A stretch of DNA of 41,453 bases from Cyanophora paradoxa CCMP329. Its lineage: Eukaryota > Plantae > Glaucophyta. The notes under the pieces were generated by a model. It ran no database searches and had not been told where the DNA came from. It saw nothing but the letters and a program-made list of their open reading frames with translations. The DNA lies in the NCBI GenBank assembly GCA_004431415.1, contig QPMI01000440.1, positions 1 through 41,453 on the forward strand, given 5' to 3'. Both the position numbers and the translations under genes were made by a program. Positions 2,920-34,418 of this stretch are shown one piece after another (within the stretch, counting starts at the first letter, position 1; every line of letters begins with the position of its first letter).

Positions 2920-3056
2920 TTGTGTGACAGCTGTGACACCTTTTTAATTGAGTGTGACGCCTGTGACGCCTGTGACGCCTGTTTTCAAACTAATTTTTAA
3001 AAATTTAAAACCTCTGAAAACAGGTGTCACAGGCGTCACACGTCACACCCAATTAA
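2920..3056. repeat. Palindromic TGTGAC/GTCACA iteron module (internal copy)
   Basis: TTAATTG-(TGTGACGCC)x3-TGTTTTCA, AT-rich spacer, TGAAAACA-(GTCACA)x3-CCCAATTAA. Homologous to modules at 31831-31950 and 32119-32240. Confidence 0.85.
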
Positions 3057-6703: not shown

Positions 6704-6886
6704 TCTACTTCATCAATCTTTCTTTTTCTTTGGTTTCGCTCTCCAAGAAGTAATAAACCGCGAATTAAATGCAGCAGCCATATACATCTTAATCCTGGAT
6801 CATTGGGCTCGATTGCAAAATAGTTGGGAATGGGACTGTCTTTCCACACAGACTCTTGCATTTATTATATGAGAGATAAGGTAAAG

Positions 6887-8150: not shown

Positions 8151-8284
8151 AGTTGACCATAGCAGGAACCAGAAATTATCAGAAGTTAACAGTCAGAGAT
8201 GGTATAATGACTTTTCAACCACCAAGGAAACATATACTGCACCCCAAACTCGATTCAATCTACGAAGTGGGCAGAGGAAATAGA

Positions 8285-9677: not shown

Positions 9678-11215
9678 TCATACACTTCGAATAAATGCAC
9701 CTGTGACATCCACTCTCATAGTTGGGCATTTATATATACAATTGGATAAATACGAATAAACTTGTCCTCAGAGGGTAGCCAATATAGAAAACGTCTTTAA
9801 TAGAGGTGGGATACCCAGAACTGTATGAGACATCACCACTGTTATGGCATTATTAATTGTTTCACACATGAACACTCTATTCACACTTCATACTTGATAA
9901 ATGACCAGGAAACACCATCTTGTGAGGTTGCAACATTGAAGGTCTTAACAAAGGCATTGGTCACACCAGACCCATATGCAATTATAGATGCTACCTCATA
10001 TATATATGGGAAGGATACTTGGAGATACTCAGTGGGAACACTCCATATCCCATCAGGAGCAGATGCATTTGCCTCCCAACCTGTTAAAGAAGGTCTTGCT
10101 TTAAATGCCTCCCTTCCAATTTTTGATGATGAAGCAGTGAAAGCACCATCTGATAGAAGATACCAGTTAGCATCAATGGGAGGTATGTTATTCAGAGTTG
10201 ATGATATATAGAACCTTGCAGGGTTCTTGATTTCATAATTTGCAACCAGTAAATCACAGAGTCTATCAATCATCACAGTGTTTGCTGCTATATACATTTC
10301 GGTTGCATCTATCATATCAGGGATCTTAGAGGTATCATCCAGGGAGTTTACTATGGTCTTTGGAAGTGGGACAGAGAGTCTATAATATCTTGCATATCCC
10401 TGATCATCATTATATGGGAGAAACTCTTGCATCTTTTCCAGGGCTGAGAGTTCACTTGCAGCCATCAACATATTAATTAATGGACTCCCAGAGGTCGAAG
10501 CAATCCATGAGAGAATGCCCCAGCTGTTGACATCTTCATAGGAATATCCCACATTTGGGGCATCTGTTTCATTGACCTCACCACAGGATATACTGATCAC
10601 AATTATATCATCATCATCATCATAGATCTTTTTAGCATGGCTGTAACCACATACACTGGGATTGTTGTTACCTGATATTGCACCATCAATTAGAGACATC
10701 CCATCATAGTTCACAGGTGAGAAGTAAGTAGGTGCAGCAGAGGTGGATCTTGCAGCAATCTTGCTGGGGATGGATTTGTAGGAATTATCATTGGTGATAA
10801 AGATGGGCTTCATGCTCACAGTGTCAAAACTGGTGATCACCACATCTTTCAGAGAGTCTTGAATGAGAGACTCACCAGTAACAGTGAGAATGGCTGTCTC
10901 CAATGGGGTCACATCATACTTGGTGTTGAAGAGGGCATTATCTATTATATTTCGGGGATTTGCAAAGATTAAAGGCAGTTGATTGAGATAAGTGGAATGC
11001 AAATCGGTTGCAGTGAGTTTAGGTTCGTTTGGAAATTCGGGATTTTTCACATTGAGACCAATAGCAATTATCCCACCAGTGGATGTACCACTCACCAGGT
11101 CAACAAGGTCAATTACTCTTTTTCCTGTTCGAGTTTCGATTTCTTTTAGCAATCTCGTAATAATTATACCACGAGCTCCCCACCTGAGAGACTGAGAATT
11201 ACACGAAGGGGCATC
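9678..11215 (-). CDS. Patatin-like phospholipase fused to a C-terminal discoidin (F5/8 type C) domain
   Basis: N-terminal LSLS-GGARG oxyanion loop (across a frameshift), GTSTG nucleophile, ARSTSAAPTYF, DGA acid. C-terminal ASS..W..EYLQVSF..VKTFNVATSQDGVSW, and FIRIYP..MRV.VTG in the next frame. Confidence 0.85.
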
Positions 11216-11263
11216 TTTACTTTACTCAAATTTAATAAATCTCTATAAGTAAAGTGAACAGGG

Positions 11264-14200
11264 ATGAGTTTCAATTACCCAGCAAACCTGCAAACCATTC
11301 CCTCATCAGGAAGAGGGAAGGCAGATAACAAACATGTAAATTTCGATAACTTGACAGCCAGAGGGTCAATCTCAATTGACCACAGTGCAGATGAACCCTC
11401 AAAGACTCACCCAAGAATGCATGCACTTTCAATAAACGAAATGGATCCCGAAAAAGAGGATGTGAGTGTTGCTTTCAGCATGGGAAATGTGAAATCGAAT
11501 CAGGTAGCCCAGATTAAAGCAACCAGGAGCAGACCAAGAAAACTGAAAACCAGTGGAACCCATCCAGATATTCCAACTCGATTCGATAGTGGTAGGTTAA
11601 TATTCAATGTTCAAAATGAGAAGGGTGGGCATCAGAGTGGTTTAAGAATCTATAATGAAGGATCAAATGCAATTGCACAAATTCCCGAAATATTACAGAT
11701 AGCCCCCCATGGAGAAACCAACAAAATCGAGTTCACTAACAATGTTTATCCAAGGGATATTGTGGCGAATTCGGCTTCTAATGCACAATTCGGTTTCCAA
11801 CTACCTGGTGATACAGCAAAGAATAAGGCGTCTATCACTGTCAACAGTAGCCCCACTCAACCAGTAACAGTTCATTTACACCCAGACCTTGTCGAAATGG
11901 ATAGGCACCTTTTACCTTTGGTCACCAACACCAAAGATCTTGGTATCAGAACCAGGCAATGGCGAAATATCCATGGAAGCAATGTGTATGCAAATGGTGA
12001 GAAACTGGTAAGTGAGAAGACCATAAGAGAGATCTTTGAATATTATGGACCTAATGGACCTGTCCCAGTTCCCTTTCCTCTTCCATGGGATCCACCAGAT
12101 TTAACACCCAAAAAGCAACCAGGAAGAGAGTATACAGCAGATGAGACAGTTCCCTTTGGGCAGCACATTGTGAGTTGGGAGCAGGTTCGAAATAAACCGA
12201 TAATTGAACCAAGAAAGCAAATTGATGAGCAATATTTACCTCCCGAAATCGATATATTGGAGCTTGATGATTACTACTTCGTCCCAGATGAGGAGGAATA
12301 CCTACCAGACGGTTTTGACCCACAGGAATATGAGTATGATCAATATGACCCAATGAGGAAGAGTATTTACCAGATGGTTTAGATCCACAAGAGTATGAAT
12401 ATGAGCAGAATTATGAACCCCATGAGGAATATTTAGCAGATGGTCTCGAACCACCAGTTGTGGATTATGAGCAACCATATGAACCCATGAAGAATTATTA
12501 CCAGATGGATTTCGCCCAGAGATTTGGGAATTCTTCCCAGATTGGGAGCAGATCAACAATAAACCAGCCAGATTTCCACCAGAGGATCACAACCATGACT
12601 GGGATGAGATATTAGGTAAACCAGACAAATTCCACCAGAGGATCACAGGCATGACTGGGGTGATATTGATGGAAAACCAGAAGAGTTTCCACCAGAAGAT
12701 CACAGACATAAATGGAGCGAAATAGATGAACAACCAAAATTCGCATCAGCAGGTGATGATTTCGACACCTTACATGGTGTTACTCTCTACCAAAGTAATA
12801 TCATACCAGAGAGATTAAGATTAGATGAATATTACCTGAATCTCAAAGGAATAGATGCAGGAACCAAATGCAGGGTGAATTATACATCAGACCCCTACAA
12901 GGATGCAGATAATTGCAGCAGGCGGAAATTTCGGTTTGATGGACACCAAACCAGGTATCTATTTAACCAGTTACTATGCAGATGACATCCCAATGACAGG
13001 AGGATTGATCTCTCTACCATCTGATCCAGCAAACTATGATGACAAAGATGCAGCAATCCAAATTAATGTAACTGATGTTAGTGACTTAGATAGTTCAAGA
13101 CCCAAATTAATATTCAGCAGAGAGAGATTGTTACCCAATGCTCTCATTGGAAATCGAGATGACTACAAGAGATGCGAAATCTCATGGATAAAAACGAATT
13201 ATAATGGTGGAGTTGGTGAGGGAGTTTTAGAAATCAATCAAAGGGCAGCAGCAAAGAATATTCACAATGAGACCATATCAAGAGTGGTAACAGAGGATTA
13301 CCTTCAAGCCCAAAACTACATAGATGAAACAGAACTGAATACAATTATTGCAGGTATTAATATTGGTGTGACAGGTGATTACCTCCTCTCACAGGTGGAA
13401 TAATTGATGGAACAGTGACAGCATGTAACTTCTTTGTCCACACTGAAAGTAATCAAACCTTCCCAGTTGTACATCCAGGAGGTGAGTATGAGATCCCAGA
13501 TGATCCAGCTATTATGCCCATTAAGATTGACCTACCTTCTGATTATGTTGGAAGGGGTGAACTGAAAACGATCTCTTTCACAGGAGATTATAATGATCTC
13601 CTCAATAAACCCACCCCATCCAATTTACACCCTGTTGCATACTCAGGTAGTTTCCTTGATCTGAATAATAGATCACACACCCACACAAAGGCAGAAATTA
13701 TAGATTTTGCACACACTCACACCAAATCCCAGATAACAGATTTTGCTCACTTCCACACCAGAGCAGATATCACGAATTTCGCTCACACTCATTTTAAATC
13801 TGAAATCACAGATTTCGCACACACTCACACAAAGTCACAGATAACAGATTTGCACACACTCACACCAAAGGAGAGATTACAGACTTTGCTCACACCCATG
13901 TAAAGAGTGAGATAACAGATTTTGCACACACTCACACCAAAGGTGAGATTACAGACTTTGCTCATACTCATACTAAGTCTCAAATTACAGATTTTGCTCA
14001 CACACACCTTTGGGGAGATATTACAGATCGACCTACTCTTGATCCATTCACAGCAACCACTATTAGAGCCAACAACACGATGTATGTAGGATCAGGTCAG
14101 ATTGTAGAACCAGCAGGACCTATGTTTGAAGAAACATGGTTCTTCCACAATTCGCAGAATTACTTTGATAAAACCTTACTTGTTCGTGGAAATGCATATG

Positions 14201-14594
14201 CAAGGAATTTCTATGCTATGAACCCTCAAATAATGCGACCATCAGTCGATGCATTACAGAAGCAGATCTTTCCAGTCAACTCAATGCATATTTTAATGGG
14301 AAAATTCAAGCAGGTAAGTATGTTTACACTACTCCTGTTTTAAATTACAATAATCTATATGTGTTCAATCTTACTATCTATTTTACCAATGCCTTTGCTT
14401 CTCCTCCTGTTGTTACAGCAACTGTAAGGCATGAAGGACAAGAACCAAATTATCAAGTAACTCCCGTCATTTTTACTGTGAACCTGTTGAATGTTTACAG
14501 TAACTATTTCACTTGTGAACTTTTCACTGATCCATATGCAATGAATAATTCATCCAAAACTGTAACAATCCATTACATTGCTGTCGCAATTTAA
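11264..14594 (+). CDS. Large phage-tail-fibre-like protein (probably one ~1100-aa ORF, possibly two; frameshifted)
   Basis: LLPLVTNTKDLGIRTRQWRNI motif; acidic EEYLPDG repeats; WxxIxxKP/FPPEDHxHDW repeats; FTGDYNDLLNKP and VAYSGSFLDL; HTHTKSQITDFA repeats; C-terminal FTNAFASPPVV H-lectin/gp53-like head. Confidence 0.7.
13672..14030 (+). repeat. 33-bp coding tandem repeat (HTHTKxxITDFA), about 10 units
   Basis: Repeated GATTTTGCACACACTCACACCAAA-type units; inverted copy at ~41155-41453. Confidence 0.9.
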
Positions 14595-17917: not shown

Positions 17918-17960
17918 TTTTTTTTTTTTTCAGTAATCCCTAGTGTATTAGGGGACTGGT
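17918..17960 (-). other. LINE 3' end: poly(A) preceded by a short stem-loop
   Basis: Minus strand reads CAGTCCCCTAATACACTAGGGATTACTG-A13; CAGT/ACTG and CCCTA/TAGGG can pair. Confidence 0.55.
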
Positions 17961-18446
17961 GCCCCAAGTTGACAAACAGCTAATGCTATCTGCCTACCCT
18001 AGGCCTAAGCCTACAAACACACGACAAGTCTAGCTTACCTCCCCCCTATTGGGTCTCCAGCTAGACTAACCCCGAGGGAATCTCCCTACTGCGAGCCCTA
18101 CCCCCTAAGGCCACTCTTGCGGCCCTCGGTGGGGCCTCCCCCAGCGGCCGCGCGAGCGCGGCCATTGGGGGGTGGGGTTGGGGTGGGGAGCTGGGCCGGA
18201 GAGTTTATTGGGGCAGGGCCCCGGAGGATTTAATTGCGCACCGCCTCTGCGGTGCGAGCGCCGCCGGGCGCGGGCCCCCGGGGAGGGTTGGGGCCCCCAT
18301 CCGGCGGCGGGTCCCGCCCTGCAGGCTGCCAGCGGCGTGGCAGCCTGCACCTGCGCGGGCGGGACCGGACCTGGCGCAGGCAGGCAGGCCACGCCCGAGG
18401 GGCCTGCTCTCCTCCAGGAGTGGGCCTCTCAAGCGCGAGCGTGGCG

Positions 18447-21400
18447 TCAGCCCGGCGCGCGCGGGCAGGGAGTGCACACTTTGGGCTCAGGGTCTGTAGC
18501 CCAGCGGGGAGAGGCGAAGATGAGGAGGGACTGGATGAGGTCGCCGCGGTGGAGCAGGGGTGGTACTTGGGGGCAGAGAAGGGGTACGGGGCTCGGTGGA
18601 GGCGGCGGTGACGGCCCAGGGGTGTAGGCAGAGGGGACATCGGTCTGGGGGCGGGAGTGCCTCGGGGTGGAGCTGGCGCGCGCGGGCGGAAAACTCGAAT
18701 GGGGGCGGTGGTGCGGGGACCGAGGGCGGTGCCGGCGGTGGTGGGGGGCCCGGCGGCGGGGGCGCGGGCTGGCGGGGCGGGGGCCGGTCTTGCGGTTCGA
18801 CGGGTGACGGCGGTGTGGGGGGTCAGAGAGGCTCGCCGAGGCGGGGGAGTCCGGGGGGGGGCGGTCCTGTGGATCAGGGGCTGGGACAGCCGGACCTGCA
18901 CGTCGGGCTCCGCGGTCTCCACGTGCAAGAAGATTGTTGCGGGCGGAGGTGAAGCCGGCCGAGTCACGGAGGGCGGCCAGCTCACGCTCGCGGCGCGTGA
19001 GGCGGCGGGGTAGCGGGGCTGGGCTGCGGGGAGGGGGAGGAGGCTGGGGGGTGTGGGGGGGAGGGGGCTGGGGGGGAAGGGGGGGGGAGACGGGGCCGGG
19101 GGACGGTGGAGGGGCCGGTCGGGCGGGCGAGGGGGAGGGGGCCGGGGGTGGCGGAGGGTCCGCTGGGGGCGGGGGCGGCGGGGAGTCCGGAGGGGGAGGG
19201 GGCAGTTGCGAGTCGGGGCCGGGGAGAACGGGGGAGAGACCGACCGCGGACCGGAAGTAGGATTGGAGGGGGCGCATCGCCACGGTCGTCCCTCTGCCGC
19301 GGCCTTTGCCGCGGCCCTTACCGGGTCGAGCTGTGCCGGCACCTAGTCGGGAGGAAGGGCCTGTCGCCTCCGGTCGGCCTGTCGGAGGTGGGCGAGGCGA
19401 GGCGGGGGGCGGGGCGGGGCGTGGGGGGGGCGGGGGGTCCGGGGCTCGCGGCGGCGGGGGTGGAGCCGGAGCCGGAGGGGGCTGGGGCGGACCTCTGGGG
19501 CCGGGTCCGGGTGCTGGGGGCCGTTGGCTTGTGGCTAGGATTCGGGTGAGGATGAGGCTGCGCCAGTGGGCGCAGCACCGGCTGCTGCCATCGAAGGGCG
19601 AGTTGGGGTCCGTGAGCGCGTCTTCTTGGCCCGGACCAGGGCGTCTGCCAGGGCACAGACAATTACACCGCAGCTGAAGCGGTCCCGTTGTTCGGGGATG
19701 GGGTACCTGGTGGCCGATGCAAGCGGCCAGGCGGTGGGGTCGTCTGAGGGGAGGTTGCGTTCCCGGCGCTCGAGCTGGAGCCAGCGGAGAATCGGGGCCA
19801 GCTTCTCTCGAGCCGACTCTGCGTTTGGCAGGTTGTAGGCATCATAGAGTTCGGCTCGACGGTCACGTACGTGGATCGCAGCGAAGGTCCAGTGGCCCGG
19901 TGAGTGGATCGGGAAGAGCAGAACATCGAAGTCGAACGGGCTGACCCGCGGGCTACCAGCTTGTTGTGAAGGCGCTGGGGGCCTCGGCCTGGCGCGGAGA
20001 GGTTAGGGTACTCAAGCGAGTCAAAGATTAGTGGACGGCGGGCCAGGGCAGGGAGTTGGGCGAGGAGGGCGAGGTAGAAGACAACGGTCTCGTCGTCTAA
20101 CCAGGTCTCACCATTGAGCCGACTGAGAGATCTCCTCGTGACGTTGATGCTGCCCGAGGTACCGAGCAGCGGCGAGGAGATCTGTCGGAGTACTTCCTGC
20201 GCAGGCTTTAGCGGGCCGGGTCGGGTCTGTGCCCACGCTAGGCGGACCTCTTCGGACGGCGGCAGGGGGGGCCACGGGCTGGGCTGCGGGCGGGTCGGGG
20301 CCGCGGGCAAGGGTGAGTGCCGGGGCTCCGGCGGGTGAGGCGCTGGGGGGCTCAGGGGGGGTGGAGGGTTAAGCTGGGGGGCTGAGCTCACGGGAGGGGC
20401 GTCCGATCGCGAGGTTGCTTTGAGGTTCGTGGGCGGGCTGTGCGGGCTGTCTGCGGCGACATTCATCAGGTCATGGGCGTCGGGCGGGGAGGGCGGGCAA
20501 GCTGGACGGTCTGTGCTCGACCGGCCTACTGCTGAGTGCGCATCGCGCGCTGGCGCTGCCGTCGGCTGGAGACGGGCGCGTTCCGGTACGCTTGGGGGTA
20601 CCGGAATACTACTGACCGGCACTACGGGTGCGGGCTGCGGGTTCGGGTCCGGCTGGGGGCGTGTCTCCCGGGCGCGGCGGCTTCTTCGGCGGGCCGCGGG
20701 GTCTGTTGCTGGCGGGGGTCGAGGCGCCGTCAGAGTCCGACGCGTGAGGCCACAGCGGCGCTGCCAGGCTTGGACGTCCGAGTTTCGCGCCTGCCAAATC
20801 TCCTGGAGCCCAGTCACAAGTACATCAAAGATCCCGTTCGCGCATTTCCGAGCAGCGGGGGCGCGGACATGAAGGTACTCGAGGGCCGGGACCAGACTGC
20901 GGGGGAGGAGCAGCCGGACGGACAGGCGGGGCGAGTCGTGCGAGAGGTCGGTGAAAAGGGCCTGTCCGTGAGTCAGCCAGCGGGAGGGGGAGCCGTAGAG
21001 ACAGGCACGGAGGTGGGGGGTACAGGCCCGGGTCGCGAGCGTTCGTGCACGGTCTGACGCCAGCGGCGTTCGTCAGCGAGGGCGAAGGCGGGAAATAGGT
21101 CGCGGAGGAACAGGCCGTCCGACTTCAGGCCGTCCGGGAGCTCGTACCTCGTTGCGGCCGACTTTAGTCTCTGCGTGGTGATCGTTGTGTGGAGGAGGTT
21201 GTAAATCTTGGATTGCATAGCGAGCCGGGCCGCTTGCGATGCCAAACAAAGGCCGAAGGCGTGGTCGTGGGTCTCGGGTTGACTCGCGCTGTGGAGCGCC
21301 GGCGGGGGGTCGCGGTCTGCGGTTGCGGCGGCTCCTGGGTCGCGCCTCGGTGCCCAGGGGGGTGCCGGGATGGGGCCGCCGGAGGCGTCGGCGACGCGAG

Positions 21401-24400
21401 CGCACCCAGGGCGTACGCACAGGCCTTGCGGGTTGATGTTGCCGTAGAGGTGTGGGGCATCGCGGGCACGGACAGGTAGGAGGGGCGCGAGTTCCATGCT
21501 GAATTTGGTGAGCTGCGCAAGGCGGGCATTGAACGGGGCTGACGCGTCGCGGGAGGCGCCTTGCTTACGGAATTCGCGCGCGAGCCGTGCCCGGTCGGCC
21601 GGGGCGCCGAGCCACGAGGATTCAAGCGACGTCAGCCGCACGAAGTTACGCATTTCGCAGACGGCGCGGACGTGGGCCCGGGGGTCGGACTCGACGCGGT
21701 ACGCTCTGCTGGAGTCGTACCCTCCAGGCTCCTGCGGGGGGTGAGAAGAGGAGGACGAACTCGAACCCGCCGGGGGGAAAGAGGGGCTCACGCCGTGCTA
21801 GCCATGCACGTTTTGCGGCAGCCGAGACGGCGGGGTCGGATGCGACTGCGGGATCTGCCTGCCAGGTGGCGCTCTCGACGTCAGCCCAGGCATTGAGGCC
21901 GTGGCCATCGCTGCAGACCTTGGAGAACGGGGCGCAGGGGTGCAGGGCGAGTGCCGCTGCGGCGAGGCGGTCGGCTCGGTGGTTATCCCGGTCGTACGCA
22001 TCATTCAGTACCCTCTCCATGCGTTGGGCGATCGGGAGGCCGGCGAGGGCGGGAACGTGGGGCCCGAGAGCCGCGAGCGCGTCTCGACGGCGCTGGCGTT
22101 CCTCCCGGCGCGCCGTGCGGGTCTGACGTTCGATCTGGTGGAGAATGCGTCGAGTCTCGCGGCGGCGGAGGTGAGCAGTGCGCGCACGGATGTGCTCGGA
22201 CAGGTAGTTATAAGCGCCCGAAAGCGGGTTCGGGCGCCCGGCGTACACCCCTTGTCCCTCGCCGAATTTGGCGATAAGCTCGGCGTCAGAGGGCTCGGGG
22301 GGGAGGTCGTCCGGGGCGGAGAGGTAGGACACGTACGATCCGGAGTCGTCCGCATCGCTGTCCGTCTCGGGCTCTGCCGGGGCGACAGGCGCAGGCCGGT
22401 CAGTGTACTCTTTCTGATGCGCCTTCACCTTCTGTACGCGGACCTCGGCGGGTGGCCTTCCGGCGGCGGCGGCGAGGGCTCTGCGGTGCTGATGGACTTC
22501 TGCAGCCGCTCGCAGATGGTGCGAGAAGTTGGTGCGAAGGCCGCTGCGGACCGTCGAGTCAGCGCGGTGCAGGACAGAGCGGCGGATGAGTGACATCGCC
22601 GTCGAGCTGTCTGTCTTAACTGTGCAGCCCTCGGGCGACTTTAAGAAGGCCGTGAGGACGGCGAGGAGCTCGCCTTTGTTGTTGTTGACAGTGCCCGGGC
22701 ACGGGGCGACAAAGAAGTCGCTGCCGTCCGTGGGGATGGCTTCGGCGAGCTCCCGCAGGGCCGCCGCCTGTGGGGCGTCATCTTCTGCGCATGCATCGGC
22801 TTCACGCAGCAGCTGGTTTTTCAGCTGTATACCTTCGCTGCGGCGCTGGGCTTCCCGCTGCCGATCCGCTGGGGAGTGCGCCGCGTTCTGCTCGTGGTCC
22901 CGGGTCCAGACACCCGCGTAAGCCGTTAGCGCCGCCTCGGATCCGAACCCCGTTGTGCTGGCATCGGTCGCCGCCACTCTCGGGGCCGGGCAGCGGGGAG
23001 CTCCTCGCGGCGAAGCTCCTGGGCTACGAGGTTCCAGAACGGGTCGGCTAGGGGCTCCGGGTCGATGAGAAAGTGCTCGAGAGGCTGGCGATCCGGGTAT
23101 ACAGGCGGTGCGGTGCGCGGTGGCACTGTACCCGGGCGGCGTTGCTTGTAGCCCGACGGCGGCTGGGGCTGCGCGGAGGGATCCGCTTCGTAATCCCAAT
23201 CGCGTTCCCACGGAGGAAGGAAGAGCGTCGTGCGGAACTCGGTCCACCACTCCTGACTCTCTAGCTTCACAACCGCGTACGGTTCGTGCTTCCGCGTGCG
23301 GGTCGCCGGGGTGATTAGCTCGAGGAGGCGGGCCGGGTGAATGTGGATAGAGTCCTCGGTCCACTGGCAGGCGCCTGACTCCGGCTCAGAGTGGTCGCAG
23401 CGCTGGCGCGCCGCCTTGGCTGTCGCATCGTCCGTCGTGTACCGCGCATCGCACTCATCTTTGAGCATCGTGCACTTGTAGAATCGGGCGGCGCCCTCCC
23501 CGTCGCCGTCGCGGATCGTGCGGTCGCGCCAGATCCAATGTTCCAGGCGGACGTACACGCGGAGGCGCCCATCGTCTTCATCGCGCTTCTCCCATTTGCT
23601 AACGATGCGCGTCAGGTAGCCCTGCGGGTGCCAGGCGAACTGTCCCTCCACGTACGGCGGGCTCATCAGGTTCGCTTCGAAAAGCGTCTGCTGGCGCCGC
23701 GCCCCCTGCTTGAGCACGTGCATGGGGAAGCGCAGGGAGCGTGGGAGCTTCCTCGGCGGGACGGGCTCGCAGATTGCGCGGAGGAAGTCTGGGAACCACG
23801 ACGGCGCCCGGCTGAGACGCTGGCGGACGCGGCCGCTGCCCCAGAGGCTCGCCCAGTCCAGAACGGTGCGCCCGTCCGGGCCCGTGATGTCCGCCGCCGT
23901 CAGCAGATCGTGTTCCCACAGGAACGGCGCGGCGCTGCGGAGGAGGGCTGGCGGTAGAAGCGTAGTGAGGACGAATCTTCGTTCGAGTCGAGGATGCGGG
24001 AGGGCCGGAGTCAGGTGCGACCTTCCCGAGTCGAGGATGTAGCCCTCCGCATTCATATTTCGGGCTATAGCGAGGGCTAGATGATCGCGCCGGAGGGCCG
24101 GGCCTGGATCTAGGTTCGGATAGCAGTACGGGGGAGAGGAAGGCATAGCTTTTCCTGCGCCGCGAACACGCGGTGGAGGAGATACGGGCGAAGCGTCGGG
24201 TGGTTCGCGCGGATTGTTTCGTCTAGGACGTGTATGGCGAGCTGCTCGTCTGCCAGGCGCTTCAGCCCATAGAATCCGCGGCTCCATATTAGGGCGTTGG
24301 GCGCCGAGCGGCGGAGGCGCGCCTGATGCTTGACTAGCGTCATCCACAGGGTATCTATCTGGGCGCACTGGCGCTCGGTGTACGCGACAACCTTGCAGGC

Positions 24401-27400
24401 GTACGTGATGCGCGGGATGAGTACGCTGTTCACGATGTACACTGCTTCCTTTGCGGTGAGCTTCTTTTTCTTTAGGATCGCGCAGGCGGTCTGCGCCATC
24501 GTGTAGACCGCTTCGAACTGATGCCTCCAATTTAGGTCCGCGGTAAACCAGACCCCCAGGAACTTGAAGGGCTTCGTCGGGGGCAGGACGTGGTGCGCAC
24601 GCTCCTTAGCCCCGGGCGGGCCAAGGAGGGGCGGTTTGGGCTCGGGAGATACGTTGTTATAAGTGAACTCAGTCTTCTTCGCGTTCAGGGCGATATCGTG
24701 GATCCAGAAGAATTCCGATACCAGGTCCGCATGCAGTTGTACCCCCCGCGCGGACGAGCTGATGAGCACGGTGTCGTCCGCGTAGGCCTGCCCTGGCGAG
24801 TCAACGTCGGGGAGGTGAGCCCGGAGGCGGTGAGCTGGCGGGGGGGCCGGGCGAGGTGCGATCCCGGGCCCCATGCGGTATGTTGTACCCTCCGCCGCGC
24901 TGACTTCGCGCAGGGCCGTAAGGAAGACATCGTAAAAGATGAGCCAGTGGATAGGCGATTCCGTACCCCCTGGGGAAGCCCGCACTCGACATCCAACGGT
25001 TCGGTGGGGCCGTACCCGGTGAGGACCGATGCCTTGCGCCGCGTCGTGAGCTGTTCGTACAGCTGAATGTACTTCTCAGGGATGCGGAGGCGGCGGAGGG
25101 CCATCGCCATGCTGGGCCAGCTCACGCTGTCGTAGGCTCGACGGATGTCAAGGAGGAGCAGGTAGATCGGTTTAGAGAACTGTTTCGCATCTTCAAGTAA
25201 TGCGCGCATCATGTAGAGCGGCTCGTCCGTCGATTTACCACGTGTAAAGGCGTAGTTTGCGCCCTTCAGTAGTTCGTTCTTTCGGATGATCCTGGAGAGT
25301 CTATCCGTGAGAAGAGCTGTTACCAGTTTCAGGGCGCATTCTTGCAGTGTTATCGGTCTGACGTTGTCAGGGTGCCCGTCCCATTCCCCGCTCTTCGGGA
25401 TCAGGCAGATATTTCCGTAGAGCAGAGGTTCAGGAACAGCTCCGAGCTCTAGAATCAGGTTGACCGTCACCAGTAGAAGCCGCCTGCAGGTTGGCGTTCT
25501 GTTTTCGGACTGGAGGGCCGAGGTGTCCAGGCCCGCTTTCTTCAGCTCTTCGAGCGTTTTCTTGGGGAGGACAGGGTCACTCCACAGCATCTTAATCATT
25601 TCATTCGAGAGGCCCGAGGGCCCTGCCGCCCCGTTTCTCAGCGAGCCAATGATTCTGCCCAGCTCCGTGTCCTCCGTGCGATTCAGTAGGCTATCGAATA
25701 GGGCTGCATCTATGTCGTCCCGCGGCGCGTGCAGTCGCTGCCAGAGGCGGGGGTCCCGGGCGCATTCGCTTAGCGGGAGACCTAGCGGGTCGGGGCAGGC
25801 CGTTAGGGGTGCTCTGCGCTTGGTCCAGGCGTGCATGTGCTGGCGGGCAAAGGGACAGACTTGCTCTTCGGAGTCATACACTTTGTATTCGAGCCCATCG
25901 AAGAACGAGAAAGATGTGATACCTCGGCGAGCCGGCGCCTCCAGGACCAGTCGGAGGTGCTGCGCGAGGTCAACTTTGAACATGCGGCGCGTGCGTTCGC
26001 GGCTCGCCAGGATGCGCTTGGTCTCGAAGCCGCGGATGTGCAGGTCGACCTTCTTGTCGAGCGCCGAGACCCATGCCAGGAACACATCGTAGTGCTCGAG
26101 CCAGCGGGGCTGCGGCGCTGAGAAAGGAGGAGAGGGGGGTGGAGCCGGGAGGAGACTATAGCCGGACCGTTTCTCCACGGGGAGCTGCGAGATGCGACGG
26201 TTATGGTTCGAGATGGCGAGGCGGAGGTCCGATAGCGCGTGTCTCACTCGGCAAGGCGTGGAGTCGGGTCCGTGTCGCGCCGCCGCCCAGGTGCGCCGGA
26301 GTTCCTGCGCGCGCGTGAGCAGCGCCGACTCTGGCCGGCCCCTGCGGGAGAACTTTTGGGTCTTGCGTGCGGGCGTGTACATGCCGAAGTCCGCGGACTG
26401 GCCGATCTCCTTGACTCGATCGAGCGCCCCGTCGAGCGCGGCGCTGAGGCGGGTCAGGCGCTGCTGCGGCGGCGCGGCGGCGTCCCGCTCGATTTCGTCG
26501 AGGATTGCTGCCACGCATTCGGCGCCGGGGCTGGTCCGGCTCAGGCTGGCCTCCAGGAGCTCCTTGAACCGAACTTTCGTCAGAGCGGCTTGCTTTCCGT
26601 ACTGGAACCTAGGCGGGCGCTGGGGGGCGGGCGGCGGGCCGGACGAGAACTGGAGGCCGAGTCCGCGCCTGTCGTACTCGGCGAGTACCGGGAAGTGGTC
26701 GGACTCGTAGGGCGCGTGGCGGGGGGATACCTGAACTGCCCGGAGTCCGGCCCCGGCTGCCGTGGACTGGAGAATGTAGTCGAGCCGAGCAGCTGTCCGC
26801 AGGTGGCCCGTCGCAGTGATCCCTCGCGGCTCAGGCCCGCGCTGTTTGTCGGGGAAGATGAAGGTGATCTGATCGTCCGTGCCCGCCAGCTTCGCAGCGT
26901 CGCGCAGGTTCCAGGCGCTCTCGCTGAGAAGCTCTCTCCACCAGCGATGCTCCGGTTCGTGTGAGCTGGCGTAGCGCGCGTTGCGGATCCGGCCGGTCGC
27001 CGGGCAGACACAGCTGTTGAAGTCACCGAGCAGGAACAGGTGCGCCTTGTGTCGGGCCGCCCAGTCGGCGAGGATGTTGTTTCGCATGTACTCGATGATC
27101 CGGGCGCTCTCCGTGTTCGCTGAGGTGCGGCTTTCTCCCGGCGGCAGGTACACGCTCGCTACGAAGACCTGCACGTTGTCCGCGAAGCGCAGCTCGCACC
27201 CGACGACTCGCCCCGGCATTGAGTAGGTGCGGAAGCAGTGCTTCGCCATGTCCGCGGACAGCAGCAGCGCAACGCCTGACCCGCGCGCAGACGGCTCCTT
27301 GGGGTCGTTCTTCTTCTTCTTCTTCTTTTTCTTCATCGGCTCGGCGCGGCGGGGCGCGCTAGGGTGGACCGAGGTCAGCATGACGCCGGCGTCGATGGCC

Positions 27401-27975
27401 TGCCTCATCGCTCGGGCTGCCGCGGCGGTACAGTTAAGTGATTGGACGCCCATGACGCTGATCCCCCAGTCCTTCATGTACTTTTGCAGGTGGCCGACGT
27501 GGTTCACGCTCGAGCACGACCGTGCGTTCCAGGTGGCGATCCGCCAGGCCTGCTTAGCGTCGAATTGGCGCTTCAGCGTGCGCGGCCGCGCGCCGAGCTT
27601 TGCGTGGGTGAAGAGGTCCGTCGGGAAGAGGTCAATTATACGGGGCGCGGCCCGGCCCTGTTGCGCCCCCCCCGCCGTGTTCACGTTATTGTTCATTGTC
27701 CCCTCAGTATGTCCCTCTCGCTCGGCGGGCGTTTGGCTAGGAGGGGAGTACGCGGGAGTATGTCCCTCTCGCTCGGCGGGCGTTTGGCGACTAGATCTAG
27801 ACAGGGACCTAGATCTACTGAGCCTGCAGCTTTCTGAGAAGCTATTGACTGCTGCTCGGGGCACACGACGAAGAATCCTGCCTCTGTCTTGCCAGAAAAG
27901 ACTGTGCACTGCGACGCGGGCGCAGCTATCGATGCCCCGAAGCTGACACGCCCGCGCGCCGTCTCCATCGTCCAT
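18447..27975 (-). CDS. LINE polyprotein: APE endonuclease - RT - RNase H - CCHC - Ulp1/C48 protease - Pro-rich tail (several frameshifts; ends approximate)
   Basis: APE: IATWNARS, GVALL, LLGDFNS, RLDYIL, SDHFPV. RT: RPITL, LLDIRRAYDSV, GLPQG, YADD, FKFLGVWF. RNase H: ATDAS, GELLAV, KTDS, KVKAH, NHRADRLA. Zn knuckle CVRPGC..ETHDHAFGLC, then IWQARN. Ulp1 motifs follow. Confidence 0.9.
19530..20140 (-). CDS. Ulp1/SENP (peptidase C48) domain of the LINE polyprotein
   Basis: LSRLNGETWLDDETVVFYL; after a frameshift FDFDVLLFPIHSPGHWTFAAI..ELYDAY..PEQRDRFSCGVIVC. This gives the His-Asp-Cys triad and oxyanion Gln. Confidence 0.85.
20415..21353. repeat. Internal LINE segment duplicated at the element's 5' end
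   Basis: Near-identical to ~28930-29870 in direct orientation. Confidence 0.92.
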
Positions 27976-28949
27976 TGCTGCGTCGCGTGTTGGCGGTGCA
28001 CTGCGGCTAAGGGAGGACGCCGCGACACGCGCACCCCGACGTTCGCGGTCGGGCGGCCTAGAGGCTTCATCCTGGAGCCGGCATCCGAGCGCGCCGCGTT
28101 CTGCGATGGTCGGCGATGAGCGGGAGGAAACGATCTTTGGTGAGGAGTCGCGTGCGGCACCCGTTGCTCAGCGATCGAGGGCCTTTCGGGTTCCTGTGAT
28201 CTGGACTGGCGGGACCGTTCGAGGGCCTGCGGTGGTTGGGAGCAGATCAGACTTGCTGTGTACAGGCGGGAGAACTGCGCGTTCGTGCTCACGTTGTTAG
28301 GCAAGCCACCGGCTTCGGCGCGCGATCGCTTCGCCGGCGTGCGAGCCACCGGCTGCTGCTGATCTGCTTTACGCTTGCCCTGTGGGTCCGGCGGCGGAGA
28401 ACGTGGGTCGCCGCGCCACTCGGACCCGCCTTCCCTTCCCGAAGACATCGCGTCGTCCCGCATGGCCACGAGTGCTTGGAAGGGGTTGGCGTGCGTGAAC
28501 GCCAGTGCCGGGCGTGCAGAGCTAGAGCTGCTCGCGTACGGAAGGGGCCGAGAGTGTGATCTATACCCCCCCTTCGTTCGCCGTGGTCGTCCCGCGGCGT
28601 CTCTAGCGCGGCTCGGCATGCGCCTACTAGTCCAGGCGATTCTACAAGAGCCCCAGAGACGCTTGGAAGCGACTCCGAGGTTTCGGCGCCAAGTGACCGT
28701 TGGCGCTGATGACGTGCGCACGCGCGTGACCTGTGCGGCGCGGCGCGGGCACAGGTTAGCTAGCGCACGGGATAGTGATATCGATCCAACATGTAGTCGG
28801 GCACGCGAAGAGGGCGAGCGATTCAGTCCAGAGGTTCGGGCGAGCATGTCCGGCAGGCGATTTGGGCAAGAGGCCGTGTCCTGAGCGAGCACGCCGCTCG
28901 ACTGCAGGCTTAAGGCACGTGAGACATCCGAGGATGCTCTGAGGTTCAT
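27693..28949 (-). CDS. Possible LINE ORF1 or N-terminal extension (low complexity, R/S/P-rich)
   Basis: 418-aa open frame upstream of and overlapping the APE ORF. No recognisable domain, and GC-rich DNA makes spurious ORFs likely. Confidence 0.35.
   Translation of the reverse strand: MNLRASSDVSRALSLQSSGVLAQDTASCPNRLPDMLARTSGLNRSPSSRARLHVGSISLSRALANLCPRRAAQVTRVRTSSAPTVTWRRNLGVASKRLWGSCRIAWTSRRMPSRARDAAGRPRRTKGGYRSHSRPLPYASSSSSARPALAFTHANPFQALVAMRDDAMSSGREGGSEWRGDPRSPPPDPQGKRKADQQQPVARTPAKRSRAEAGGLPNNVSTNAQFSRLYTASLICSQPPQALERSRQSRSQEPERPSIAEQRVPHATPHQRSFPPAHRRPSQNAARSDAGSRMKPLGRPTANVGVRVSRRPPLAAVHRQHATQQWTMETARGRVSFGASIAAPASQCTVFSGKTEAGFFVVCPEQQSIASQKAAGSVDLGPCLDLVAKRPPSERDILPRTPLLAKRPPSERDILRGQ
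27706..27789. repeat. Direct repeat AGTATGTCCCTCTCGCTCGGCGGGCGTTTGGC x2 (QTPAEREGHT)
   Basis: Two identical 32-nt units with a 51-nt period. Confidence 0.85.
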
Positions 28950-29870
28950 GGGAGGCCGTGCGGGCTGTCTGCAGCAACATTCATCAGGTCATGGGCGTCG
29001 GGCGGGGAGGGCGGGCAAGCTGGACGGTCTGTGCTCGACCGGCCTACTGCTGAGTGCGCATCGCGCGCTGGCGCTGCCGTCGGCTGGAGACGGGCGCGTT
29101 CCGGTACGCTTGGGGTACCGGAATACTACTGACCGGCACTACGGGTGCGGGCTGCGGGTTCGGGTCCGGCTGGGGGCGTGTCTCCCGGGCGCGGCGGCTT
29201 CTTCGGCGGGCCGCGGGGTCTGTTGCTGGCGGGGGTCGAGGCGCCGTCAGAGTCCGACGCGTGAGGCCACAGCGGCGCTGCCAGGCTTGGACGTCCGAGT
29301 TTCGCGCCTGCCAAATCTCCTGGAGCCCAGTCACAAGTACATCAAAGATCCCGTTCGCGCATTTCCGAGCAGCGGGGCGCGGACATGAAGGTACTCGAGG
29401 GCCGGGACCAGACTGCGGGGGAGGAGCAGCCGGACGGACAGGCGGGGCGAGTCGTGCGAGAGGTCGGTGAAAAGGGCCTGTCCGTGAGTCAGCCAGCGGG
29501 AGGGGGAGCCGTAGAGACAGGCACGGAGGTGGGGGGTACAGGCCCGGGTCGCGAGCGTTCGTGCACGGTCTGACGCCAGCGGCGTTCGTCAGCGAGGGCG
29601 AAGGCGGGAAATAGGTCGCGGAGGAACAGGCCGTCCGACTTCAGGCCGTCCGGGAGCTCGTACCTCGTTGCGGCCGACTTTAGTCTCTGCGTGGTGATCG
29701 TTGTGTGGAGGAGGTTGTAAATCTTGGATTGCATAGCGAGCCGGGCCGCTTGCGATGCCAAACAAAGGCCGAAGGCGTGGTCGTGGGTCTCGGGTTGACT
29801 CGCGCTGTGGAGCGCCGGCGGGGGGTCGCGGTCTGCGGTTGCGGCGGCTCCTGGGTCGCGCCTCGGTGCC
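28930..29870. repeat. Extra 5' copy of LINE internal segment 20415-21353
   Basis: Near identity from ~28980 to 29870; partial identity over ~28930-28980. Confidence 0.92.
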
Positions 29871-30873: not shown

Positions 30874-30898
30874 AAATCTCAGGTATATATAGAGAGGA

Positions 30899-31357: not shown

Positions 31358-31759
31358 ATGAATACTCATCGAGGCTTCCATGTGATGCTGGATTACAAAT
31401 TCAGAACCCAATTAGCAGTAGGAGTGGAAGACTTGGAGACAACGACCAGGTGGTTAATGCAGTTCTTACAAACTATTATTCAAGAGCAAGGTATTCGAGT
31501 AGTTCACAAGCATTGCGAGATTTTCGATGGTGGTATTTCTCCTCCTGGTTTTGCAATGGTTCTTCTGCTGGATGAGAGCCACTGCACTGCTCATTGTTAC
31601 TCAAATGAAGGTATGCTGGCGATTGATATATTCAGTTGTGGATTAGAAGCAGAGAGAAAAACCACGAGAGTATCTCATGAGATAGATGAGAGAATAACAG
31701 GTGTGTTTTCAGGGTTGGAGAAATCGGAGAAACATAGAGTATTGCGATTTCCGAGTTAG
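31358..31759 (+). CDS. speD: Pyruvoyl-dependent S-adenosylmethionine decarboxylase proenzyme (short, prokaryotic class 1b-like)
   Basis: GFHVMLD; PPGFAMVLLLDESHCTAHCYSNEGMLAIDIFSCG matches the E|SH autocleavage site and DxFxCG motif; 133 aa, intact. Confidence 0.85.
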   Translation: MNTHRGFHVMLDYKFRTQLAVGVEDLETTTRWLMQFLQTIIQEQGIRVVHKHCEIFDGGISPPGFAMVLLLDESHCTAHCYSNEGMLAIDIFSCGLEAERKTTRVSHEIDERITGVFSGLEKSEKHRVLRFPS

Positions 31760-32351
31760 TTGACACTGAGAAATTCAGAATTTCAGATGGTCTTACTGAA
31801 AATGGTCAGATAATCGGGTGTGACACCTATTTAATTGACTGTGACGCCTGTGACAGGTGTGACACCTATTTTCAAACTTTTTAAAATTCTCACAAATTAC
31901 AGACTTCTGAAAACACCTGTCACACCTGTCACACCCGTCACACCCAATTAACAAAAGACTCTATTTCTTACTGAGATATTCAAGAATTTATTGTTGTCTT
32001 ACTGAAAACAGTCTATGTGACAGGTGTGACACCTTCAAAATCCACCAACAATAGTCGATTTCATGAATACCTTTCTGTCTTACTGAAAATGGTAAGGAGA
32101 CCAGGTGTGACAGGTAGTTTAATTGAGTGTGACAGGTGTGACAGGTGTGACACCTATTTTCAAACTTTCTAAATTTTTCAAAAATGACAGACTTCTGAAA
32201 ACACCTGTCACACCTGTCACACCTGTCACACCTGTCACAGACATTCTACCCCTCTTACTGACTTTCTCAAAAACAAATATATCTATTACTGAATATCATT
32301 TGAATACTACCTGTCACACTTGAATTCAATTATTCTGTTTTATAGAACATA

Positions 32352-32615
32352 TGCAATCTAATCGATTGTTCAATTGGAGACCATGCAACTCTGTGACACT
32401 TTTTCGATCTAAAATATAAATCCGCAATCTCATCGATTGTTTAATTGGACATAATGCAGTTCCGATATATTCCAATAGAAAATCCCGCAATCTAATCGAT
32501 TGTTTAATGGGAGATAATGCAACTCTGTGACACTTTTTCGGTGCAAAAATGTACATCAGCAATCTCATCGATTGTTCAATTGGACACAATGCAACTCTGT
32601 GACACTTTTTGCGTT
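32352..32615. repeat. Four ~65-70-bp subterminal tandem repeats
   Basis: Core GCAATCTMATCGATTGTTYAATKGGASAYMATGCA, three units followed by ACTCTGTGACACTTTTT. Confidence 0.85.
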
Positions 32616-32930: not shown

Positions 32931-33024
32931 ACACATATTGAAAAACGAATTTAAATCCAGAGTGAATCGAGATCGCGAAGCGATCGAGATGAACGAGGAT
33001 TTAAATTCGTTTTTCAATATGTGT
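32931..33024 (+). other. Terminal hairpin of copy A
   Basis: Perfect 28-bp stem 32931-32958 / 32997-33024 enclosing an imperfect inner stem with a GCGAAGC apex. Confidence 0.92.
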
Positions 33025-34323
33025 AACCTGGTCTTGGGATAAATTCGATGAAGCCCTGAAATCCGGTAAATATACTGCTTGGGGCATTCTCGCTCGTAAT
33101 ATCCTGGTAATTGACTTCGACCAAGAGGAGGATTTCGCCAAATTCGAGGAGCAATTCCCTGATGATTTCGGTGGTGTTAATCCTCTTGCTAAAACCAAAA
33201 AAGGATATCATGCATTCTTCGCTCGACCTGCTGAATTCGACACCATTAAGATCTGGGATAAAGCGGGTGCATTCAAAGGAAACCCCAAGATCGACTGCAA
33301 AACGATTGCATCCACTGGGACTGCTGGGTGATTAATGTTTGCCCCAGTCCCAACAAAACATGGATCAGAGAGCCATGGGCATCTGAGTGTGAGTTAAATG
33401 AACCCACTGCTGAGTTGCAAAAGTGGATTGTTGAAAACTACGAATTCCCCAAAGGTGCACATTCTTATTATGCAAGGTGCGCTGAGGAGAATTTGCAGAA
33501 ACATATTCTTTCTAAACTCGAAGAATTCGGTTTCATCTTGCCCACAATCATCAATGAGACCAAGATGGGATACAATTTCACTGCTGAGAACAAAGGTCTG
33601 GTCTGTCCCTGCTGCAAGGGAAGCCATGACTCAAACAATTGGTATATTATTCAAGGGAAGGAGAAAGACAAGTACATTGTTTCGAGTTACAGTGCAAACT
33701 GCAAGAAGCGAAGCATCACTGTTCGTGTGAAGGAAGAGACAGATGTGAAGATCGAAAATCTGATTGATCGGTCTGCTGGATCTGATGGTGCCCATTATGA
33801 TGTTGCACAGGTTGCCTATCTTGTTCTGCAAGACAAATACAAGTATTCCAACAAGACCTGGTTCAAGTTCAATGATATATGTGGGATTTGGGAGTTGGAT
33901 GAAACTGGGAAGCGAATCTTTCTCTGTTTGAGCTGCAAGGTCTGTCCAGTTTATCTTCAACGTTCTGTTCAACTCGCACAGAGAGCTCTTCGTGATGAAG
34001 AGAACCGCAATTCCTTGGAGGAAAGGTCAAAGATTCTGCTGGGAATTGCTAAGAGCCTCAAACAGACTACATACAGAACTGCACTTATGTCTGATCTTTC
34101 AGTTCTGTTCAGTGACAAGACCTTTTTCGAGAGACTTGATACTGTTCCCAACATCATAGGATTCACAAATGGTGTATTTGACTTGAACTCCATGACTTTT
34201 CGACAGGGACTCCCAGATGATATGGTGAGCAAGACTGTTGGCTACGATTATACCACAGAAATCGACCAAGAGAAGGTTGCAAAGATTAAGTCCATCTATG
34301 CAGATATTATTGAATCGGATACA
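33025..34323 (+). pseudogene. 1.3-kb internal fragment of the primase-helicase gene from a further copy of the element
   Basis: Aligns to 633-1929 with roughly 15-20 mostly synonymous substitutions (counted by eye); truncated on both sides exactly at element termini. Confidence 0.9.
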
Positions 34324-34418
34324 ACACATATTGAAAAACGAATTTAAATCCCTCGTTCATCTCGATCGCTTCGCGATCTCGATTCACTCTGGATTTAAAT
34401 TCGTTTTTCAATATGTGT
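34324..34418 (-). other. Terminal hairpin of copy B
   Basis: Reverse complement of 32931-33024 with one extra base. Confidence 0.92.

What the first reader, a model, noticed from the sequence alone, without database searches (positions are those of the whole stretch)
32931..33024. Strand-specific terminal DNA hairpin built from tandem sheared G.A pairs and a GCGAAGC loop
Seen: a 28-bp perfect stem whose last base is the element's last base. Inside it, A-GA-GT-GA-ATC-GA-GATCGC-GAA-GCGATC-GA-GAT-GA-AC-GA pairs fully except for three regularly spaced 5'-GA/5'-GA tandems and one extra A. Known: tandem GA mismatches form stable sheared pairs, and d(GCGAAGC) is an exceptionally stable, nuclease-resistant mini-hairpin. 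The complementary strand would have weak T.C mismatches and a TTC loop. Inference: only the strand whose 3' end is at the terminus is selected to fold, placing a paired 3'-OH pointing inward. That suggests self-priming (parvovirus-like), end protection, or rebuilding a duplex origin on displaced ssDNA. This differs from simple Polinton TIR ends, and the 5'-ACACA terminus is also not the usual AG/TG.
Basis: partly seen in the sequence, partly recalled or inferred. Interest (0 to 1): 0.82.

Follow-up and report, generated by a model that had tools for sequence, protein, structure and literature searches.

The report
Streptomyces-style hairpin caps algal virus end
The end of a polinton-like virus inserted in what is likely an alga's genome is a 95-base palindrome whose mismatches are all G·A pairs on the strand ending there, so that strand is predicted to fold into a stable cap that would likely let the virus finish copying its ends much as Streptomyces bacteria do.

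Summary
The hairpin is real and sits exactly at the element's end, but it is 95 nt, not 94. The window's second copy and 4 of 4 short-read runs have one more G, so the 'extra A' faces a G. All 8 mismatches in register are G·A type. Sister tips in the reads change sequence yet keep a GNA cap and, where visible, G·A-closed loops. No inverted ('flop') tip was seen, which counts against parvovirus-type hairpin transfer. The element carries a Maverick-type PolB, an rve integrase and a Prim-Pol/D5 helicase followed by SaPI-like iteron arrays. Its 5'-ACACA end resembles a published Maverick end motif, so it is not unusual. Best reading (0.42): the 3' end folds into a cap and the 5' end is remade by protein priming after internal initiation, as at Streptomyces telomeres. 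Self-priming with one-sided resolution remains open (0.28). Terminal palindromes with a priming model are already in a 2026 preprint on Halocafeteria viruses. The strand-specific G·A grammar and the end-patching reading were not found in my searches. The left end lies outside the window, and nothing was tested at the bench.

The parts
32931..33024 (+). Terminal palindrome of the element (94 nt as assembled, 95 nt with the G missing behind 32996); the + strand ends here with its 3' end
32931..32958 (+). Inner arm of the 28-bp perfect stem (75% A+T); repeats the 5'-terminal sequence
32959..32996 (+). Tip: short helices of 2, 3 and 6 bp separated by one 3x3 and two 2x2 G·A loops
32975..32981 (+). 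GCGAAGC mini-hairpin cap; the only GNA-loop hairpin with a stem of 4 bp or more in the last 500 nt of either strand
   Evidence: PMC13037366 passages
32997..33024 (+). Outer arm; last base is the element's last base; the other strand starts 5'-ACACA
   Evidence: junction comparison
34324..34418 (-). Same terminal palindrome (95 nt) at the end of a second, inverted copy; same orientation relative to its terminus
33025..34323 (+). 1.3-kb piece of a primase-helicase gene (98% identical to 633-1929) between the two ends; likely target DNA of a resident copy into which both elements inserted
627..2858 (+). Prim-Pol / D5-type primase-helicase gene, in frameshifted pieces
   Evidence: Prim-Pol: Atlas 0.97, PF09250 E 0.016, below cut-off; D5_N E 2.6e-10; PHROG primase E 1e-25; stop position
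2923..3047 (.). Iteron-like array: TGTGAC(A/G) repeats facing inverted copies across an 82% A+T spacer, about 65 bp behind the helicase stop; candidate internal origin
   Evidence: SaPI layout in PMC9371898
3655..6721 (+). Maverick-type family B polymerase region, in pieces; 5309-6721 mapped by homologs, upstream part assigned by position only
   Evidence: 30 hits, 2 with PF03175; tblastn and motifs KLMNNAIYG, FHDTDS
6824..8277 (+). rve-type integrase, in two pieces
   Evidence: PF00665 E 0.001, below cut-off; 4384 hits
9881..11221 (-). Patatin fused to an F5/8 discoidin domain
13379..14594 (+). Fibre gene with phage-tail repeats and an H-lectin-like end (both weak Pfam hits)
17918..29870 (-). 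GC-rich non-LTR retrotransposon insertion (endonuclease, RT, RNase H) that interrupts the first copy
31358..31759 (+). S-adenosylmethionine decarboxylase gene
   Evidence: E 6e-11
31819..31942 (.). Second iteron-like array, 78% A+T spacer
32106..32239 (.). Third iteron-like array, 78% A+T spacer, about 790 bp from the terminus
32329..32610 (+). Four subterminal repeats spaced 63-72 bp apart
   Evidence: families D13 and D15

Best explanation
The 95-base palindrome at the very end of this integrated polinton-like virus is likely a telomere cap: when the 3' end becomes single-stranded during copying it is predicted to fold back, stiffened by G·A pairs and a GAA loop, and the missing 5' end would then likely be rebuilt by protein-primed synthesis, as at Streptomyces telomeres. 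Shown: the palindrome, its exact terminal position, the all-G·A mismatches on the 3'-end strand, one orientation in integrated copies, and the genes for both a Prim-Pol/D5 helicase and a Maverick-type PolB. Inferred steps: (1) the primase-helicase opens the iteron arrays and copies outward; (2) RNA- or DNA-primed copying leaves a 3' overhang; (3) the overhang folds, resists exonucleases and can repair its own tip on the inner arm, which would keep the 28-bp stem perfect; (4) PolB with a terminal protein docks there, opens the fold and starts on the (AC)n end by slide-back; (5) because each 5' end is made anew, the tip is never inverted.
For: Grammar: 8 of 8 register mismatches are G·A/A·G. Sister tip B, listed as a loose end in 3 of 4 runs (X4, X5, X6), has other letters but a GCGTAGC cap and GGA/GTA and GGA/GGA 3x3 loops closed by G·A; I read this by eye from 30 of 57 letters. 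Tip C (X4 only, 17 letters) shows a GCGAAGC cap; its right half is not shown. Only GNA triloops form mini-hairpins (PMC13037366 passage), and (GGA)2 is a known sheared-pair zipper (PMC11014236 passages). Orientation: 2 of 2 window copies agree; contigs running from the inner flank into the G·A tip occur in X6 (32921-32995), X4 (32866-32959) and X10 (variant arm, 32912-32977); no joint was listed. Protein-priming signs: PolB relatives include PF03175 proteins, and the dinucleotide end resembles the Maverick 5'-(AC)3A motif. Internal-origin signs: 37 iteron matches in the element against a shuffle mean of 4.4, maximum 9, in opposed arrays around 78-82% A+T spacers, one directly behind the helicase gene, which is the SaPI ori layout. 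Precedent: Streptomyces 3' overhangs fold with GNA loops and sheared G·A pairs, are patched by protein priming, and repair their tip by fold-back (PMC5449611, PMC4513846, PMC13685816 passages).
Against: No overhang, terminal protein or origin activity was shown. A paired 3'-OH beside a template is a ready primer, so something must stop plain extension; PMC5449611 raises the same problem for Streptomyces. In Halocafeteria, terminal palindromes go preferentially with non-pPolB replicases, which points away from protein priming. The replicases of the elements bearing tips B and C are unknown. There is one hairpin here against seven palindromes in Streptomyces. Computed strand asymmetry is only 1.4 kcal/mol, and a pyrimidine loop complementary to a GGA loop can be equally stable in one context (passage). 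The fixed orientation rests on integrated, near-identical copies and on contigs that drop rare variants. Whether the five changes in a variant inner arm are compensated in its outer arm could not be read.
Confidence: 0.42

Rival explanations
1. Self-priming. The folded 3' end primes copying by the element's polymerase, giving a hairpin-closed duplex and a dimer junction. A nick on one defined side then resolves it so that only one tip orientation survives, as recalled for the left end of minute virus of mice. The G·A strand would be the signal that makes the resolution one-sided.
For: The fold places a paired 3'-OH at 33024 against 32931, pointing inward. The Halocafeteria preprint proposes hairpin priming and links palindromes to non-pPolB replicases, and this element has a Prim-Pol/D5 enzyme.
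Against: No inverted tip was seen, which counts against simple terminal resolution and demands an extra asymmetric step. No HUH/Rep nickase was found among 36 ORF pieces scanned with Pfam or 13 with PHROGs; only a small nuclease-associated zinc-finger ORF at 30893-31171 and a weak endonuclease-VII/HNH hit inside the PolB region. The missing left part could hold one. A dinucleotide end and a pPolB would be unnecessary.
Confidence: 0.28
2. Recognition site rather than cap. The hairpin is a one-strand docking site, either on displaced single strands or extruded from the duplex, for the Prim-Pol primase, the integrase or the packaging motor. It would work like RSF1010 ssiA with RepB' or the N4 promoter hairpin; for PolB alone it could act as a local stand-in for the adenovirus-type panhandle.
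For: GNA mini-hairpins occur in ssiA and in N4 promoters (PMC13037366 section 14). The stem copies the terminal 28 bp exactly. Barth et al. propose that primase-helicases act on inverted repeats (PMC11296320 passage).
Against: Tips A, B and C differ in sequence while keeping shape, which suits stability better than base reading. A primase site alone would not complete the last bases of the 5' end.
Confidence: 0.22
3. Neutral by-product. The palindrome arose by fold-back repair or template switching at a DNA end and its mismatches are accidental.
For: The Halocafeteria authors list accidental annealing as an alternative. Copies are near-identical and may descend from few founders. The probability test is post hoc.
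Against: 8 of 8 mismatches fall in one class; a second tip family with other letters keeps a GNA cap and G·A-closed loops, and a third shows the cap. Template switching would be expected to perfect the tip, not keep the mismatches (inference).
Confidence: 0.08

Closest known systems
Terminal palindromes of Halocafeteria seosinensis virophages (subtypes 1, 2, 5, 6) and PLV subtype 4 (bioRxiv 10.64898/2026.07.28.741278; section 7 read in full)
   Same: Palindrome at the very end of an integrated rve-encoding element; hairpin role in replication proposed.
   Different: 52 nt in the example given, against 95 here. No mismatch pattern, strand asymmetry or orientation is described in the text read (supplements closed). 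Mostly linked to non-pPolB replicases; this element has both types.
Streptomyces telomeres, Tap/Tpg end patching (PMC5449611, PMC4513846, PMC13685816; passages)
   Same: 3'-strand fold-back with GNA loops and sheared G·A pairing; terminal sequence pairs back on an internal copy; internal origin; in the proposed model, protein-primed completion without inversion.
   Different: Bacterial; several short palindromes; uses Tap, Tpg and DinB, not a family B polymerase; no integrase. Overhang and terminal protein are not shown here. An analogy, not membership.
Polintons/Mavericks and glaucophyte PLVs (PMC8097293, passages; PMC12220804, section 13 part 1 and supplement rows)
   Same: pPolB-type polymerase, rve integrase, dinucleotide end motif; patatin-discoidin fusion and PTR/H-lectin fibre as described for glaucophyte PLVs.
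   Different: The words 'hairpin' and 'palindrom' occur 0 times in PMC12220804 and 'hairpin' 0 times in PMC8097293; an extra Prim-Pol/D5 replicase with iteron arrays is present.
Parvovirus 3' terminal hairpins (rolling-hairpin replication; mostly recalled, the likeness to Streptomyces ends from PMC4513846)
   Same: 3'-terminal fold-back able to prime.
   Different: Large integrase-encoding element; no nickase found in the window; no flip/flop seen.
SaPI origin (PMC9371898, passages)
   Same: Opposed iterons around an A+T-rich core directly behind a primase-SF3 helicase gene.
   Different: Three arrays here, two near the end; binding untested.

Membership tests
Polinton/Maverick | Protein-primed family B polymerase | tested here: met
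   30 homologs, 2 annotated PF03175; catalytic-type motifs. No direct Pfam hit on the window pieces; terminal-protein domain not identified.
Polinton/Maverick | rve integrase | tested here: met
   PF00665 E 0.001, below the curated cut-off; 4384 relatives; D-D-E-type motifs.
Polinton/Maverick | Terminal inverted repeats at both ends | not testable with these tools
   Left end outside the window; no genome held. Two unreviewed notes report the palindrome at both ends of other copies.
Polinton/Maverick | 5-6 bp target-site duplication | not testable with these tools
   Only one end of each copy is in the window.
Polinton/Maverick | Short tandem end motif | tested here: met
   5'-ACACA; published motifs include 5'-(AC)3A. 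Here it is (AC)2A, one unit shorter.
Polinton-like virus | Major and minor capsid, packaging ATPase | tested here: inconclusive
   None among 36 pieces (Pfam) and 13 pieces (PHROGs); no PLV capsid profile was used; the left part of the element is missing.
Glaucophyte PLVs of PMC12220804 | Patatin-discoidin fusion; PTR plus H-lectin fibre | tested here: met
   PTR and H-lectin hits are below cut-off.
Halocafeteria-type palindromic ends | Palindrome at the element boundary | tested here: met
Halocafeteria-type palindromic ends | Non-pPolB replicase | tested here: inconclusive
   Both Prim-Pol/D5 and PolB present.
Parvovirus-type rolling hairpin | Flip/flop inversion by terminal resolution | tested here: not met
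   One orientation in 2 of 2 window copies and in contigs of X4, X6, X10; no joint listed. Integrated copies only; rare variants are dropped.
Parvovirus-type rolling hairpin | HUH nickase | tested here: inconclusive
   None in the window; left part missing.
Streptomyces-type telomere | GNA loop and G·A pairs on the 3'-end strand | tested here: met
   the sheared geometry itself is inferred from model oligos.
Streptomyces-type telomere | Several tightly packed palindromes | tested here: not met
   One GNA hairpin in the last 500 nt; seven in Streptomyces.
Streptomyces-type telomere | Internal origin leaving a 3' overhang | tested here: inconclusive
   Iteron arrays present; activity untested.
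Streptomyces-type telomere | 5' terminal protein; Tap/Tpg | not tested
   No search for Tap/Tpg was run; linkage needs viral DNA.

The most novel reading that the evidence does not exclude
A eukaryotic DNA virus that has converged on the Streptomyces solution to the end problem. A primase-helicase starts at internal iteron origins, the leftover 3' ends fold into G·A-zippered, GNA-capped telomeres, and a Polinton PolB serves only to patch the ends by protein priming. This would be a third replication mode beside full protein priming and hairpin priming, and would make two-replicase elements a working design rather than a transient state.
Probability: 0.3. Interest if true: 0.83.

Novelty: new variant of a known kind. 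Interest (0 to 1): 0.6.

Why it matters
How polinton-like viruses and virophages copy their ends is open; the 2026 Halocafeteria preprint asks for exactly this kind of characterisation. A tip whose letters turn over while non-Watson-Crick pairs stay on one strand is genomic evidence that these ends exist as folded single strands. That makes the question testable with short oligos and with DNA from a cultured host. If the end-patching model holds, it would explain why some elements keep both a pPolB and a D5 primase-helicase, which two preprints treat as a stage of replacement.

Tried and rejected
No whole genome was held, so the left end and target-site duplications were not seen. DNA pattern scans found no relative. 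IMG/VR gave 1 hit for the exact tip core (L001, inside an unrelated GC-rich contig with no matching stem), 1 for the flexible pattern (L002, not palindromic) and 0 for tip B. The metagenome scan gave 99 stretches; none of the 100 loci then held resembled this end on inspection, most being one gut-bacterial repeat family. The search for related loci with the integrase and with the helicase found nothing in viral contigs. The genome-contig collection was not scanned. Rfam gave 16 sub-threshold miRNA-type matches, none at gathering score, so a known RNA is rejected. The single-sequence fold of the Prim-Pol piece was unusable (pLDDT 39.6) and was not searched; PDB sequence searches were blank, as was the longer-protein search. 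No RNA holder was listed. I first read the mirror-image contig breaks in run X5 (hairpin positions 17 and 79) as a compensatory change. I rejected this because a depth-6 variant at the loop centre gives the same breaks (records 21-24). Tip depth is about 1.3-1.8 times helicase depth in X5 and X6, compatible with two tips per genome, but the tool warns that depth is no copy number, so it is not used. The idea of one element with a TIR over 7 kb was judged less likely than two tail-to-tail copies: contig depth at 31193-31423 is near the helicase's, not double; this is weak for the same reason. Kapitonov and Jurka 2006 is not held. The supplement of PMC12220804 as held gave no TIR or TSD rows for glaucophyte elements. 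Supplements of the two bioRxiv preprints were not seen and may hold palindrome sequences that show the same G·A pattern.

Full report
Setting. The window holds the right-hand 21 kb or so of an A+T-rich (about 40% G+C) element, split by an 11.95-kb GC-rich non-LTR retrotransposon at 17918-29870. The element ends at 33024. A 1.3-kb piece of its own primase-helicase gene follows (33025-34323, 98% identical to 633-1929), then a second, inverted copy of the same end from 34324 to the window's edge. The simplest reading is two insertions into the helicase gene of a resident copy (inference). The genes are a Prim-Pol/D5 primase-helicase, a Maverick-type family B polymerase, an rve integrase, a patatin-discoidin fusion, fibre genes and an AdoMet decarboxylase. 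Many frames are broken, but short-read contigs show single-base insertions at full depth at several places (table 4), so at least some breaks are assembly errors. No capsid gene was recognised; the left part is missing and no genome is held. Unreviewed scan notes place the genome in Cyanophora paradoxa. I did not test this directly, but the patatin-discoidin fusion and the PTR/H-lectin fibre match what PMC12220804 reports for glaucophyte PLVs. Coded runs of one organism hold the stretch (14 rows with half the words or more).

Observation. The 28-bp stem, three GA/GA tandems and GCGAAGC cap are there, and 0 of 200 shuffles fold as well. The end is exact, because the native helicase gene differs at the first base beyond both junctions. 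One correction: the second copy is 95 nt and all 4 runs laid carry an extra G behind 32996, so the 'extra A' is part of a 3x3 AGA/GAG loop. In the 95-nt form, 8 of 47 register pairs are mismatched and all are G·A or A·G (post hoc P about 1e-6, or 2.4e-4 with the tip's own composition). Four other imperfect palindromes of the element reach at most 3/11, 3/13, 5/22 and 3/16. The nearest-neighbour model gives the strands -34.3 and -32.9 kcal/mol, and the tip alone is not significant. PMC13037366 states that current parameters do not explain mini-hairpin stability and that only GNA triloops form it (passages). So the strand bias rests on model-oligo literature, not on my fold.

Relatives. Public contig collections gave none. 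The reads of the same organism did (24 loose-end rows shown, 7 not shown; 32 records shown, 154 not). Tip B follows a similar arm (4 differences in 35 letters), is listed in X4, X5 and X6, and has depth 84 in X4 against 2852 for the main tip. Read by eye from the 30 letters shown of 57, it has a 4-bp helix capped by GCGTAGC, then a GGA/GTA loop, a 2-bp helix and a GGA/GGA loop, each loop closed on both sides by G·A in the sheared orientation. (GGA)2 is the centromeric guanine-zipper motif (PMC11014236 passages). Tip C, in X4 only, shows a GCGAAGC cap with GGA and GAA triplets on its left; its right half is not shown. A third variant has five changes in the inner arm (depth about 800-900 in X4, X6, X10); in X10 it joins the main tip, and its outer arm could not be read. 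The evidence is one contig per run and partial. Two unreviewed notes on other copies report the 95-nt palindrome at both ends of a 28-kb virus and a like reading of sister copies; they probably rest on the same reads and are not independent.

Orientation. Both window copies have the G·A version on the strand whose 3' end is terminal. Contigs cross from the inner flank into that version in X6 (32921-32995, 0 differences), X4 (32866-32959) and X10 (32912-32977); tip B is likely the same way round. No strand-change joint was listed. Ordinary hairpin transfer inverts the tip at each round (established for parvoviruses; recalled), so it is disfavoured. The limits are that only integrated, closely related copies were seen and that contigs drop rare forms.

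The end motif is not odd. Vertebrate Mavericks end in (AGT)2, (AG)3 or (AC)3A (PMC8097293 passage). Such short repeats serve slide-back or jump-back initiation in protein priming (established; recalled, with a reference title).

What the finding does not mention. TGTGAC(A/G) and its inverse occur 37 times in the element against a shuffle mean of 4.4. They form opposed arrays around 78-82% A+T spacers at 2923-3047, directly behind the helicase stop, and at 31819-31942 and 32106-32239. SaPI origins have this layout behind a primase-SF3 helicase gene (PMC9371898 passage). The element thus has the makings of an internal origin and of protein priming together.

Mechanism. Streptomyces replicons start internally, leave 3' overhangs that fold with GNA loops and sheared G·A pairs, pair the terminal sequence back on an internal copy, repair the tip by fold-back, and are patched by protein priming (passages of PMC5449611, PMC4513846, PMC13685816). 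That scheme accounts at once for the strand carrying the G·A pairs, the fixed orientation, the perfect outer stem, the dinucleotide end and the two replicases. I give it 0.42. Against it: nothing functional is shown, the folded 3'-OH invites plain extension, there is only one hairpin, and in Halocafeteria palindromes go mostly with non-pPolB enzymes. Self-priming with one-sided resolution gets 0.28; it needs a nickase not found in the window. A docking site for primase, integrase or packaging gets 0.22 (ssiA and N4 precedents, PMC13037366 section 14). A neutral by-product gets 0.08.

What is known. Terminal palindromes and a hairpin-priming model for endogenous virophages and a PLV are in bioRxiv 10.64898/2026.07.28.741278 (section 7 read in full; passages); it was the only paper holding all four terms of one search. 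Two-replicase elements are discussed there and in bioRxiv 10.64898/2026.10.13.758929 (passages) as stages of turnover. I found no report of G·A grammar or end patching in these viruses in searches; in one search no listed paper (15 of 28) held both 'end patching' and 'polinton'. The library lacks most subscription papers and the preprints' supplements were closed. PMC11296320 was seen as passages. Kapitonov and Jurka 2006 was not available.

Verdict. A real, likely selected single-strand end structure of a Polinton-type element: a new variant of a recently described kind, with a testable and possibly new replication mode. Interest 0.6.

Noticed in passing
window 2923-3047, 31819-31942, 32106-32239: Three opposed TGTGAC(A/G) iteron-like arrays around A+T-rich spacers, one directly behind the primase-helicase gene; SaPI-type origin layout in a eukaryotic virus.
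   Followed up: partly
window 33025-34323: Two copies of the element meet tail to tail around a 1.3-kb piece of the family's own helicase gene, suggesting that the family inserts into itself.
   Followed up: partly
window 17918-29870: Non-LTR retrotransposon (endonuclease, RT, RNase H) flanked by an unusually long duplication of about 205 bp (17713-17917 = 29871-30077), with a 945-bp internal direct repeat (20410-21354 = 28929-29870).
   Followed up: no
window 32898-32924: Short-read contigs of three runs (X2, X5, X6) join a reversed copy of this subterminal segment to the hairpin flank through 8 other letters (table 5c): a local inversion variant just inside the hairpin.
   Followed up: no
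window 9130-9217: A 15-bp perfect hairpin with a 4-nt loop, overlapping an 18-bp inverted repeat, in the non-coding stretch between integrase and patatin genes.
   Followed up: no
window 32329-32610: Four subterminal repeats spaced 63-72 bp, three carrying a TGTGACA motif; possible protein-binding array.
   Followed up: no
window 31358-31759: S-adenosylmethionine decarboxylase gene near the end; by my reading of the column order, Table S6 of PMC12220804 counts this family 66 times in its glaucophyte row of 156.
   Followed up: no
L004 8001-8075 and more than 50 like loci: A family of long imperfect palindromes in gut-bacterial contigs with tandem GCGAAGC motifs at the centre and variable outer arms; unrelated to this element, perhaps a REP-like repeat with the same mini-hairpin.
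   Followed up: no
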